A DNA stretch of 6,636 bases. Origin: a virus. Taxonomy: Duplodnaviria; Heunggongvirae; Uroviricota; Caudoviricetes. Position numbers: made by a program. Positions within the stretch are counted from its first letter, which is position 1, and each line of letters begins with the position of its first letter. Where the stretch lies: IMG/VR virus record IMGVR_UViG_2531839200_000006; one strand, 5' to 3'. Of the stretch, positions 3,001-6,000 are shown piece by piece.

Positions 3001-6000
3001 GGAACCGTTTTCTGCGGGCCGGGGTGGAGGTCGATCGATATGGCCGTGCCGTTGCGTACCATATCTGTGAGGATGATTTTCCTCGCTCCGGGAGTGGACG
3101 ATGGGAACGGATCCCGCGTGAACTTCCCACCGGGCGTCCGGCCATGCTGCATATTTTCGAGCCGGTGGAGGACGGGCAGACCCGTGGGGCCAACCAGTTT
3201 TACAGCGTCATGGAACGGCTGAAGATGCTCGATTCCCTGCAGGCAACACAGCTTCAGTCGGCCATTGTGAAAGCCATGTATGCAGCGACGATTGAAAGTG
3301 ACCTTGATACCGAAAAGGCCTTTGAATATATCGCCGGTGCGCCGCAGGGGCAGAAGGATAATCCGCTTATTAATATTCTGGAGAAGTTCTCCAGCTGGTA
3401 TGACACGAATAACGTGACGCTGGGTGGTGTCAAAATTCCGCACCTTTTCCCCGGGGATGATCTGAAACTACAGACTGCGCAGGATTCAGACAATGGATTT
3501 TCGGCGCTTGAACAGGCGCTGCTGCGGTATATCGCCGCCGGTCTTGGCGTTTCCTACGAACAGTTGTCCCGTGATTACTCGAAGGTCAGTTATTCAAGTG
3601 CCAGGGCCTCTGCCAATGAGTCGTGGCGCTATTTTATGGGGCGGCGAAAATTTATTGCGGCCCGGCTGGCCACGCAGATGTTTTCCTACTGGCTGGAAGA
3701 GGCACTTCTTCGGGGGATTATCCGTCCGCCACGGGCGCGTTTTGATTTTTATCAGGCGCGATCAGCCTGGTCACGGGCAGAGTGGATTGGTGCCGGAAGA
3801 ATGGCCATTGACGGGCTCAAGGAGGTTCAGGAATCGGTGATGCGCATTGAGGCCGGACTGAGCACGTATGAGAAAGAGCCGGCGCTGATGGGCGAGGATT
3901 ATCAGGACATTTTCCGCCAGCAGGTCAGGGAATCTGCAGAGCGGCAAAAAGCCGGACTCTCACGTCCGGTGTGGATAGCGCAGGCGTATCAGCAGCAGAT
4001 AGCGGAGAGTCGCAGGCCGGAAGAGGAGACAACACCCCGTGAGACGTAATCTTTCACACATTATTGCCGCAGCATTCAATGAACCGCTGCTTCTGGAGCC
4101 CGCCTATGCGCGGGTTTTCTTTTGCGCGCTCGGGCGCGAGATGGGGGCAGCAAGTCTTTCGGTACCACAGCAGCAGGTACAGCTTGATGCTCCCGGAATG
4201 CTGGCTGAAACGGACGAGTACATGGCCGGAGGTAAACGACCGGCCCGTGTTTACCGGGTGGTGAACGGTATTGCTGTACTGCCGGTGACCGGCACGCTGG
4301 TGCACCGGCTGGGGGGTATGCGGCCATTTTCCGGAATGACAGGCTATGACGGCATTGTCGCCTGTCTTCAGCAGGCAATGGCGGATAGCCAGGTGCGGGG
4401 CGTACTGCTGGACATTGACAGTCCGGGCGGGCAGGCCGCCGGCGCGTTTGACTGCGCTGACATGATTTACCGCCTCCGTCAGCAGAAGCCGGTCTGGGCA
4501 CTGTGCAATGACACGGCCTGTTCTGCAGCCATGCTGCTGGCGTCGGCCTGCTCCCGACGGCTGGTTACCCAGACATCCCGTATCGGCTCCATTGGCGTGA
4601 TGATGAGCCATGTCAGCTATGCCGGTCATCTGGCGCAGGCCGGTGTGGATATCACGCTGATTTACTCAGGGGCGCACAAGGTGGATGGCAATCAGTTTGA
4701 AGCCTTACCGGCAGAGGTTCGCCAGAACATGCAGCAGCGCATTGATGCGGCGCGCCGGATGTTTGCCGAAAAAGTGGCCATGTTTACCGGTCTGTCTGTT
4801 GATGCCGTCACGGGAACAGAGGCCGCCGTTTTTGAAGGTCAGTCCGGCATTGATGCCGGGCTGGCGGATGAATTAGTCAATGCGTCGGATGCCATCAGTG
4901 TGATGGCCACGGCGCTGAACAGTAATGTCAGAGGAGGCACTATGCCGCAATTAACTGCAACGGAAGCCGCCGCGCAGGAGAACCAGCGAGTGATGGGGAT
5001 CCTGACATGCCAGGAAGCGAAAGGACGTGAACAGCTTGCCACGATGCTGGCAGGACAACAGGGCATGAGCGTTGAACAGGCCCGGGCGATTCTGGCCGCG
5101 GCGGCACCGCAGCAGCCGGTGGCATCCACGCAGAGTGAAGCCGATCGCATTATGGCGTGTGAAGAAGCGAACGGTCGTGAACAACTGGCGGCAACGCTGG
5201 CGGCGATGCCGGAGATGACGGTGGAAAAAGCCCGCCCGATCCTGGCTGCTTCACCGCAGGCGGATGCCGGACCCTCACTCCGTGATCAGATCATGGCACT
5301 GGATGAGGCAAAAGGGGCTGAGGCGCAGGCTGAACAGCTGGCTGCCTGCCCGGGAATGACTGTGGAGAGCGCCCGGGCTGTGCTGGCTGCGGGATCAGGT
5401 AAGGCAGAACCGGTCTCTGCATCCACAACCGCCCTGTTTGAACGCATCATGGCGAACCATTCACCGGCTGCGGTACAGGGTGGCGTGCCACAGACGTCAG
5501 CAGACGGTGATGCGGACGTGAAAATGCTCATGGCCATGCCATGAAGTCAGTGCTGACCATCAACAGGAGGTTTTTACAATATGGTAACGAAAAACATCAC
5601 TGAACAGCGTGCGGAAGTACGTATTTTTGCCGGTAATGATCCGGCTCATACCGCCACAGGCAGCAGCGGGATTTCCTCGGCAACACCGGCACTGACGCCC
5701 CTGATGCTGGATGAAGCCAGCGGGAAACTGGTGGTCTGGGACGGACAGAAAGCCGGTAGTGCAGTTGGCATACTGGTACTGCCGCTTGAAGGCACAGAGA
5801 CGGTACTGACCTATTACAAGTCGGGGACCTTTGCGACGGAGGCAATCCGCTGGCCTGAAAGTGTGGATGAACACAAAAAGGCAAATGCCTTTGCCGGCAG
5901 TGCCCTGAGTCACGCGGCGCTGCCGTAACACGTTATCAGGCCACCGCGGTGGCCTGACTGATTGCTGAATGAAAGGAACTGATTTATGGGATTGTTTACG

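What the first reader, a model, noticed from the sequence alone, without database searches (positions are those of the whole stretch)
4984..5466. Triplicated scaffold repeat module in the gpC/Nu3 C-terminal domain
The C-terminal domain contains three full, diverged in-frame copies and a partial fourth of a ~47-53 aa module (RIM...EA.GRE...LA..PGMTVE.AR.ILAA), where I recall only about one and a half copies in lambda. This makes the protein about 60 aa longer. The copies are diverged at the nucleotide level, so the duplication is old and has been maintained. The scaffold domain is released by the protease during head maturation, and its length and valency could influence procapsid assembly.
Basis: partly seen in the sequence, partly recalled or inferred. 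Interest (0 to 1): 0.45.

Follow-up and report, generated by a model that had tools for sequence, protein, structure and literature searches.

The report
Triplicated scaffold module, phage 21 type
The head protease/scaffold gene of this E. coli prophage carries three diverged copies of a short helical module that phage lambda has once. The triplication is real and ancient, but it was annotated in phage 21 decades ago and occurs in about a third of complete E. coli genomes.

Summary
The gpC-type gene (4039-5544, 501 aa) has three in-register 41-aa modules: R1 4987-5109, R2 5137-5259 and R3 5278-5400. They are 46-54% identical in protein and 53-61% in DNA. The best module pair scores 11 SD above composition shuffles. 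A short helix follows (ALFERIMANHSP, 5431-5466).

Lambda, phi80 and distant relatives have one module plus the same trailing helix. One copy is therefore the usual state in the family. Three copies mark the phage 21 / Gifsy-1 lineage.

Modules match by position across E. coli, E. albertii, Salmonella, Trabulsiella and Providencia. Where dS could be estimated, each copy has dN/dS of about 0.1-0.3. The triplication is therefore old and each copy is constrained as protein.

It is not new. The window is 96% identical to phage 21. GenBank M81255 already marks these segments as "Tri1 box", "Tri box" and "Tri3 box" in gene 6, function unknown. The region occurs in 1864 of 5426 complete E. coli genomes.

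AlphaFold models each module as a small helical unit joined by low-confidence linkers. No solved structure matches. The most likely function is a multivalent procapsid-interaction unit of the scaffold. That is inferred, not shown.

The parts
4039..5544 (+). Head maturation protease/scaffold gene (lambda C homologue; phage 21 gene 5), 501 aa, GTG start
   Evidence: ORF list. Peptidase_S49 E 2.8e-35. 98.6% nt identical to phage 21 gene 5. phrog_53 'head maturation protease' E 1e-149.
4930..4937 (+). Shine-Dalgarno-like AGAGGAGG for the nested scaffold gene
   Evidence: Read in the sequence. M81255 annotates an RBS at the equivalent position (5464-5468). AGGAGG followed by ATG is conserved at the homologous site in lambda, Gifsy-1 and phi80.
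4942..5544 (+). Nested in-frame scaffold gene (lambda Nu3 homologue; phage 21 gene 6), 200 aa
   Evidence: Annotated CDS in M81255 and OL657228 at the equivalent coordinates. Expression from this start was not tested here.
4987..5109 (+). Module R1 (aa 317-357), RVMGILTCQEAKGREQLATMLAGQQGMSVEQARAILAAAAP. It is the positional orthologue of lambda's single module
   Evidence: It overlaps the 'Tri1 box' of M81255 (window 5009-5112).
5137..5259 (+). Module R2 (aa 367-407), EADRIMACEEANGREQLAATLAAMPEMTVEKARPILAASPQ
   Evidence: It overlaps the 'Tri box' of M81255 (window 5149-5259).
5278..5400 (+). Module R3 (aa 414-454), LRDQIMALDEAKGAEAQAEQLAACPGMTVESARAVLAAGSG. The GRE motif is degenerate (GAE)
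   Evidence: It overlaps the 'Tri3 box' of M81255 (window 5290-5403).
5431..5466 (+). It is also present after the single module of lambda
   Evidence: AlphaFold places a helix at scaffold residues 160-173. Conservation is 0.64 in the homologue alignment.
5467..5541 (+). Variable, low-confidence C-terminal tail ending in the conserved-type ...MLMAMP
   Evidence: Conservation is 0.42-0.53. pLDDT is below 50 at scaffold residues 176-186.

Best explanation
This is the phage-21-type head protease/scaffold gene pair (gene 5 with nested gene 6, homologues of lambda C and Nu3).

Its scaffold part carries three tandem, protein-level copies of the roughly 41-aa helical module that lambda-type S49 protease/scaffold proteins normally carry once. 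These are the 'Tri boxes' already annotated in phage 21.

Shown here:
- The copies are true homologous repeats.
- The first copy corresponds to lambda's single module.
- The triplication predates the split of the E. coli, Salmonella, Trabulsiella and Providencia prophage lineages.
- Each copy is under purifying selection as protein, while the linkers between them evolve faster.

Inferred mechanism:
- Each module is an independent small helical interaction unit on a flexible chain, possibly folding only on binding.
- Through these units the scaffold, and the protease that shares its C-terminal part, binds a partner inside the assembling procapsid.
- The most likely partner is the major capsid protein. 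The portal or another scaffold chain are alternatives.
- Three modules would give each chain up to three contacts.
- After assembly the protease would cut the chain, presumably in the linkers, and the fragments would leave.
For: Identity of the gene:
- S49 domain.
- Gene order terminase, W-like, portal, protease/scaffold, decoration protein, capsid protein.
- 96% nt identity to phage 21 over window 424-6236.
- Tri1/Tri/Tri3 repeat_region features in M81255 map onto R1-R3.

Real repeats: z = 11.4 against shuffles. Lambda-type scaffold profiles match three times.

One copy is the family norm:
- Lambda, phi80, Xylella phage Sano, Marinobacter phage PS3, a Chi-like phage and RcWata have one copy. 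Gifsy-1 has three.
- Of 76 complete genes picked by their protease domain from species-representative genomes, 66 have one copy, 3 have three, 1 has two and 6 have none detected.
- Of 56 full-length S49 representatives found with the module profile, 54 have one copy.

Age and constraint:
- Nearest neighbours of each module are the same-position modules of other genera.
- dN/dS for the three modules together is 0.12 (Gifsy-1) and 0.21 (Trabulsiella), against 0.37 and 0.53 for linkers and tail. The protease domain gives 0.14 and 0.10.
- Modules are more conserved than linkers (0.77-0.84 against 0.46-0.53).

Architecture:
- AlphaFold gives three repeated helical units at pLDDT about 70-78. The linkers score lower, around 50-60 in 10-residue blocks, with stretches below 50. 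pTM is 0.26, so no fixed arrangement between modules.
- A single module models at pLDDT 77 and pTM 0.50.

Partners from the literature: lambda Nu3 interacts with E, C and itself, and is needed for portal incorporation (PMC3224144).
Against: - No experiment or structure assigns a partner to the module. There is no PDB relative by sequence or by fold.
- Lambda gpNu3 is reported to be intrinsically disordered (title of Medina et al. 2011, J Mol Biol 412:723, cited). The helical units may not be stably folded on their own, and model confidence is only moderate.
- Natural in-frame two-copy alleles exist (L043, P0020, P0021). A four-copy allele also exists (P0027). Three copies may therefore not be strictly required, though the viability of the phages carrying these alleles is unknown.
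- R3 has lost the conserved Arg of the GRE motif, so the copies may not be functionally equivalent.
- The prophage in this window lacks most of its capsid gene. In this genome the gene may no longer be used.
Confidence: 0.85

Rival explanations
1. The apparent repeats are only low-complexity Ala/Gln/Glu-rich similarity with no common origin.
For: The region is rich in A, E, Q, L and G. The weak HhH hit (PF00633, E 0.093) shows how easily short helical motifs match.
Against: The best module pair scores 96, against a shuffle maximum of 51 (z = 11.4). The alignment is ungapped over 41 residues with conserved positions I5, A11, G13, R14, E15, A18, L21, M27 and A32. A profile of the module finds 973 representative proteins at E <= 0.001, mostly S49 protease/scaffold proteins with the module at the same place.
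Confidence: 0.01
2. The 'Tri boxes' are functional DNA elements, such as protein-binding sites or recombination or regulatory repeats. The protein repeat would be a by-product.
For: M81255 annotates them as DNA repeat_region features of unknown function. OL657228 marks CII-consensus pattern matches on the opposite strand in this gene. In-register recombination between modules does occur (L043, P0020).
Against: DNA identity between copies is only 53-61%, and fewer than half of the conserved residues share a codon. Between orthologues the synonymous sites are near saturation (pS 0.57-0.93) while amino acids are conserved (dN/dS 0.1-0.3). Conservation therefore acts on the protein.
Confidence: 0.03
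3. The extra modules are mainly spacer. They keep the overall length of the scaffold chain, or the reach of the protease tether, in a lineage that lost about 35 aa of the linker before the first module. They would add no binding valency.
For: In the phage 21 type the stretch between the nested start and the first module is about 15 aa, against about 50 aa in lambda. Two-copy and four-copy alleles occur naturally.
Against: Each extra module is conserved in sequence about as strongly as the protease domain. The true linkers evolve 2-4 times faster in dN/dS. A pure spacer would not keep the same consensus residues in all copies.
Confidence: 0.1

Closest known systems
Phage 21 gene 5 / gene 6 with Tri1, Tri and Tri3 boxes (GenBank M81255; complete genome OL657228)
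   Same: The gene is 98.6% identical in DNA. It has the same nested start and RBS. The three annotated repeat regions map onto R1-R3, and Tri1 is 100% identical.
   Different: There are a few substitutions in Tri2 and Tri3. Here the gene sits in an E. coli O157:H7-type prophage whose capsid gene is truncated. The small terminase end also differs from phage 21.
Lambda gpC / gpNu3 (protease with nested scaffold)
   Same: It has the S49 protease domain (60% identity over the protease part), a nested in-frame scaffold start behind AGGAGG, the same module (lambda RIMGILNCEEAHGREEQARVLAETPGMTVKTARRILAAAPQ) and the same trailing helix.
   Different: Lambda has one module rather than three and a linker before it that is about 35 aa longer. 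Lambda gpC is 439 aa against 501 aa.
Gifsy-1 (Salmonella) gpC homologue STM2605
   Same: It is 498 aa with three modules, each closest to the same-position module of the window.
   Different: DNA identity is about 71%. Its R3 keeps the GRE motif that the window's R3 has lost.
P22 scaffolding protein C-terminal helix-turn-helix coat-binding domain
   Same: By analogy only. Both are small helical elements near the C-terminus of a flexible scaffold protein. In P22 this element binds the coat protein (established knowledge of P22 assembly).
   Different: No sequence or fold match was found. P22 has a single element and no fused protease.

Membership tests
Lambda-type S49 prohead protease with nested scaffold (gpC/Nu3; phage 21 gp5/gp6) | Peptidase S49 domain in the N-terminal two thirds | tested here: met
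   PF01343, E 2.8e-35, 122 bits against a cut-off of 24.9, aa 146-293. S162 and K214 are invariant in 8 diverse homologues. Their role as the catalytic dyad is inferred, not tested.
Lambda-type S49 prohead protease with nested scaffold (gpC/Nu3; phage 21 gp5/gp6) | In-frame internal start with a ribosome-binding site that yields the scaffold protein | tested here: met
   AGAGGAGG lies at 4930-4937 and ATG at 4942. The site is conserved in lambda, Gifsy-1 and phi80 and annotated in M81255 and OL657228. Translation from it cannot be tested with these tools.
Lambda-type S49 prohead protease with nested scaffold (gpC/Nu3; phage 21 gp5/gp6) | Position between the portal gene and the decoration and major capsid genes | tested here: met
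   Portal 2457-4049, this gene 4039-5544, decoration protein 5581-5928, capsid gene remnant 5986-6252.
Lambda-type S49 prohead protease with nested scaffold (gpC/Nu3; phage 21 gp5/gp6) | Conserved C-terminal scaffold module plus trailing helix | tested here: met
   Three module hits, where lambda has one. The trailing helix is aligned.
Phage 21 'Tri box' repeats of gene 6 | Three repeat regions at M81255 5542-5645, 5682-5792 and 5823-5936 | tested here: met
   They map to window 5009-5112, 5149-5259 and 5290-5403. Tri1 is identical. Tri2 and Tri3 are not identical to phage 21, and the gene overall is 98.6% identical.
Helix-hairpin-helix motif (PF00633) | Score above the Pfam gathering threshold | tested here: not met
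   13.1 bits against a cut-off of 24, E 0.093, in R3 only.
P22-type scaffold coat-binding helix-turn-helix | Detectable sequence or fold similarity | tested here: not met
P22-type scaffold coat-binding helix-turn-helix | Direct binding to the major capsid protein | not testable with these tools
   The only evidence is yeast two-hybrid data for whole lambda Nu3 with E (PMC3224144).

The most novel reading that the evidence does not exclude
The module is the unit through which lambda-type scaffolds grip the capsid protein or the portal, and its copy number sets the valency of each scaffold chain. Enterobacterial prophages would then offer a natural allelic series of one copy (lambda, phi80), two (L043, P0021, Buttiauxella), three (phage 21, Gifsy-1) and four (P0027). 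That series could be used to test how scaffold valency affects nucleation, stoichiometry and size fidelity of a T=7 procapsid.
Probability: 0.3. Interest if true: 0.35.

Novelty: already known. Interest (0 to 1): 0.15.

Why it matters
The finding matters little as a discovery. The triplication has been annotated in the phage 21 head-gene record for decades and is present in about a third of complete E. coli genomes.

The analysis adds some context:
- One copy is the family-wide norm.
- The three copies are positional orthologues across at least five host genera.
- Each copy is under protein-level constraint.
- Rare two-copy and four-copy alleles exist.

The function of the module is still formally unknown in any phage. 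This most conserved piece of the lambda-type scaffold is therefore a sensible target for binding and structural studies, and the natural copy-number variants are ready-made reagents for them.

Tried and rejected
- The first homologue search with the 200-aa scaffold part returned mostly gene fragments. It showed copy-number variants but was not usable as a census. I replaced it with loci selected by the protease domain and a module-profile search.
- An initial count of three two-copy alleles among 80 close relatives was corrected on inspection. One is a clean in-frame R1/R2 hybrid (L043), one is cut by the contig end (L078) and one ORF ends early (L035).
- The Pfam HhH hit is below threshold, so I rejected it.
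- Literature: the paper that accompanies M81255 could not be found in the library. From memory it is Smith and Feiss, Gene 1993. The Medina et al. 2010 and 2011 papers are not held. The claim of prior description therefore rests on the GenBank feature table itself.
- I considered the idea that the trailing ALFERIMANHSP is a true partial fourth copy and left it open. The shared motif is about 5 residues, and the same element follows the single module in lambda.

Full report
WHAT THE WINDOW IS

The 6636-base window is the left end of a lambdoid prophage head-gene cluster. Its contents are:
- the end of a small terminase gene
- the large terminase gene, which ends at 2270
- a W-like gene, 2254-2460
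- the portal gene, 2457-4049
- an S49 protease/scaffold gene, 4039-5544
- a decoration-protein gene, 5581-5928
- the first 88 codons of a major capsid gene, 5986-6252

The window is 100% identical to prophages of E. coli O157:H7 strains. It is 96% identical in DNA to phage 21 over window 424-6236. The protease/scaffold gene alone is 98.6% identical to phage 21 gene 5.

THE OBSERVATION

The 501-aa product has a Peptidase_S49 domain (E 2.8e-35, aa 146-293). A C-terminal part follows, in which a 15-residue window self-comparison already shows strong off-diagonal matches at offsets of 50, 47 and 97 residues.

A simple pattern, and then an HMM built from it, delimit three ungapped 41-aa modules:

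| Module | Residues | Nucleotides |
|---|---|---|
| R1 | aa 317-357 | 4987-5109 |
| R2 | aa 367-407 | 5137-5259 |
| R3 | aa 414-454 | 5278-5400 |

Pairwise identity is 46-54% in protein and 53-61% in DNA.

The best 41-aa off-diagonal score is 96. In 1000 shuffles of the scaffold part the mean is 27.2, SD 6.0 and maximum 51. At DNA level the best 123-nt window has 77 matches, against at most 63 in codon shuffles.

PHROG profiles of lambda-type scaffold proteins match three times.

The finding's coordinates (4984-5466, aa 316-476) are accurate. The repeats are not compositional.

The 'partial fourth copy' (ALFERIMANHSP, aa 465-476) shares only about five residues with the start of a module. The same element follows lambda's single module (ALDRLMQGAP). 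It is best seen as a constant trailing helix.

IT IS ALREADY DESCRIBED

The GenBank record of the phage 21 head operon (M81255) carries three repeat_region features in gene 6: 'Tri1 box', 'Tri box' and 'Tri3 box'. All are marked 'function unknown; putative'.

They map to window 5009-5112, 5149-5259 and 5290-5403, which are R1, R2 and R3. Tri1 is identical base for base.

The same record, and the complete phage 21 genome OL657228, annotate the nested gene 6 (the Nu3 homologue). It starts at the ATG equivalent to window 4942, behind an RBS. In the window the RBS reads AGAGGAGG at 4930-4937.

I could not retrieve the accompanying paper. From memory it is Smith and Feiss, Gene 1993.

HOW COMMON IS EACH COPY NUMBER

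I selected relatives by the protease domain, so that copy number could not bias the sample.

- Close relatives. Among 80 viral contigs with at least 98% identical protease domains, 77 have three modules. One is a clean in-frame two-copy allele, an R1/R2 hybrid (L043). Two are truncated ORFs.
- Species-representative genomes. Among the 80 best protease-domain loci, 76 genes are complete.
  - 66 have one module. Many of these are lambda itself, present as a contaminant of unrelated assemblies.
  - 3 have three modules: E. albertii, Trabulsiella guamensis and Providencia alcalifaciens.
  - 1 has two modules: Buttiauxella.
  - 6 have none detected.
- Named phages. Gifsy-1 has three. Lambda, phi80, Xylella phage Sano, Marinobacter phage PS3, a Chi-like Salmonella phage and Rhodobacter phage RcWata have one. 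A Felix-O1-like phage and Vibrio phage VPHZ6 have none detectable.
- Module profile against 1.84 billion representative proteins. It found 973 proteins at E <= 0.001. Of 56 full-length S49 proteins among the best 150, 54 have one module, one has two and one has three.
- Other variants. A few distant lineages show independent duplications (P0188, P0106, P0218, P0158). An E. coli allele with four modules exists (P0027). It lies next to intact decoration, capsid, FI and FII genes.
- E. coli genomes. The three-module region of the window is found at 80% coverage or more in 1864 of 5426 complete genomes, with up to five places per genome.

In short, one copy is the family norm and probably the ancestral state. 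Three copies is the fixed state of the widespread 21/Gifsy-1 lineage.

AGE AND SELECTION

Each module's nearest neighbours are the same-position modules of other genera. For example, win.R1 groups with Salmonella, Trabulsiella and Providencia R1, and win.R2 with Gifsy-1 and Providencia R2. R1 keeps the RVMGIL signature of the single-copy proteins.

The triplication therefore predates the divergence of these prophage lineages. In the four-copy allele, by contrast, copies 2-4 are 80-85% identical to each other. That points to a recent additional duplication.

Nei-Gojobori estimates against orthologues:

| Comparison | Three modules together | Single modules | Protease domain | Linkers and tail |
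|---|---|---|---|---|
| Gifsy-1 | 0.12 | R2 0.10, R3 0.22 (R1 saturated) | 0.14 | 0.37 |
| Trabulsiella | 0.21 | R1 0.10, R2 0.24, R3 0.33 | 0.10 | 0.53 |

Synonymous sites are near saturation in these comparisons. Against Providencia only R2 (0.13) and the linkers (0.48) could be estimated.

Column conservation in a 16-row homologue alignment is 0.77-0.84 in the modules and 0.46-0.53 in the linkers.

Conservation therefore acts on each copy as protein. This argues against a DNA-level role for the 'boxes' and against a pure spacer role.

STRUCTURE

AlphaFold2 on the 200-aa scaffold part, with a 20-row alignment, gives mean pLDDT 65.6 and pTM 0.26. Within each module it places:
- a short helix over the (R/D)xIM segment
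- a turn at EAKG
- a helix over REQLAxxL
- a loop at the PGM segment
- a helix over VExARxILAA

Confidence is about 70-78 in the modules. The linkers score lower, about 50-60 in 10-residue blocks, with stretches below 50 at scaffold residues 57-63, 153-157 and 176-186. A single module modelled with 19 module sequences gives pLDDT 77 and pTM 0.50, with the same helices.

The picture is small helical beads on a flexible string.

No solved structure is related by sequence or fold.

One caution applies. Lambda gpNu3 has been reported as intrinsically disordered (title of Medina et al. 2011, cited). The modules may therefore fold only on binding.

HOW IT PROBABLY WORKS

Established knowledge for lambda:
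- C is the procapsid protease and Nu3 the scaffold. Both are essential (PMC10695390).
- Nu3 is needed to incorporate the portal.
- Nu3 interacts with C, with itself and, in two-hybrid tests, with the capsid protein E (PMC3224144).

The module is the most conserved part of the scaffold across hundreds of protein clusters. I therefore infer that it is the interaction unit that docks scaffold and protease inside the growing shell. The capsid protein is the most likely partner, and the portal or another scaffold chain are alternatives.

Three modules would make each chain trivalent. After assembly the protease would cut the chain, presumably in the faster-evolving linkers.

None of these mechanistic steps is shown.

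Length bookkeeping: the 62-aa excess over lambda gpC is two modules plus linkers (97 aa) minus about 35 aa of shorter linker before R1.

VERDICT

The feature is a long-annotated property of phage 21-type head genes, so novelty is nil and interest low.

Residual interest lies in the unknown function of the module and in the natural one-to-four-copy series.

SIDE OBSERVATIONS

- The prophage in the window is defective. Homology to the phage 21 capsid gene stops at 6236. RefSeq annotates the capsid gene as incomplete and directly followed by a tail protein gene.
- Window 1-423 does not align with phage 21.
- The RefSeq start of lambda nu3 (5132) has no Shine-Dalgarno sequence, and the equivalent residue is Ile in the phage 21 type. 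An AGGAGG followed by ATG further downstream, roughly 200 nt from that start, is conserved in all four phages checked.

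Noticed in passing
window 5986-6252, junction near 6236, through 6636: The major capsid gene is only an 88-codon remnant. Homology to phage 21 ends at 6236, and RefSeq annotates 'major capsid protein, incomplete' directly followed by a 'phage tail protein' gene. Most of the capsid gene and the head-completion and tail-joining genes are deleted, so this prophage cannot build its own head.
   Followed up: partly
window 1-423: The end of the small terminase gene and the first codons of the large terminase gene do not align with phage 21 by blastn, although the rest of the window is 96% identical. 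This looks like a mosaic boundary at the terminase subunit interface or cos-recognition region.
   Followed up: no
L003 (lambda) locus position 833 (genome 5132) and around locus position 1040 (genome approx. 5340): The RefSeq start of lambda nu3 (5132, giving 201 aa) has no Shine-Dalgarno sequence, and the equivalent residue is Ile in the phage 21 type gene. An AGGAGG followed by ATG at the GG(R/T)M position is conserved in lambda, the window, Gifsy-1 and phi80. The annotated lambda start may be wrong. The homologous start would give a scaffold of about 130 aa in lambda, against 200 aa here.
   Followed up: partly
L104-L110, L113, L115 and other loci: Lambda-type gpC loci, all with the same match (61% identity to the window's protease domain) and the same module score as lambda itself, appear in assemblies labelled Kitasatospora, Shewanella, Pseudomonas, Oceanobacillus, Leeuwenhoekiella, Akkermansia, Chromatium and others. 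Several sit on contigs of about 48.4-48.5 kb or at very low coverage. This is almost certainly lambda DNA contamination of those assemblies.
   Followed up: no
P0027 / L173 1-1043; L043; P0020; P0021: Natural copy-number alleles of the module exist in E. coli. A four-copy allele has copies 2-4 that are 80-85% identical and lies next to intact D/E/FI/FII-type genes. Two-copy alleles were made by in-register recombination between modules (L043, P0020) or by exact loss of R2 (P0021).
   Followed up: partly
P0188, P0106, P0218, P0158: Distant relatives show independent two-fold duplications of the same module. These include stand-alone scaffold-sized proteins without an S49 domain. Duplication of this module has therefore happened more than once.
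   Followed up: no
P0048 (270 aa): This is a chimeric ORF. The N-terminus resembles a DNA methyltransferase (it has a DPPY motif) and is fused to a three-module scaffold part. It may be a real recombinant or an assembly artefact.
   Followed up: no
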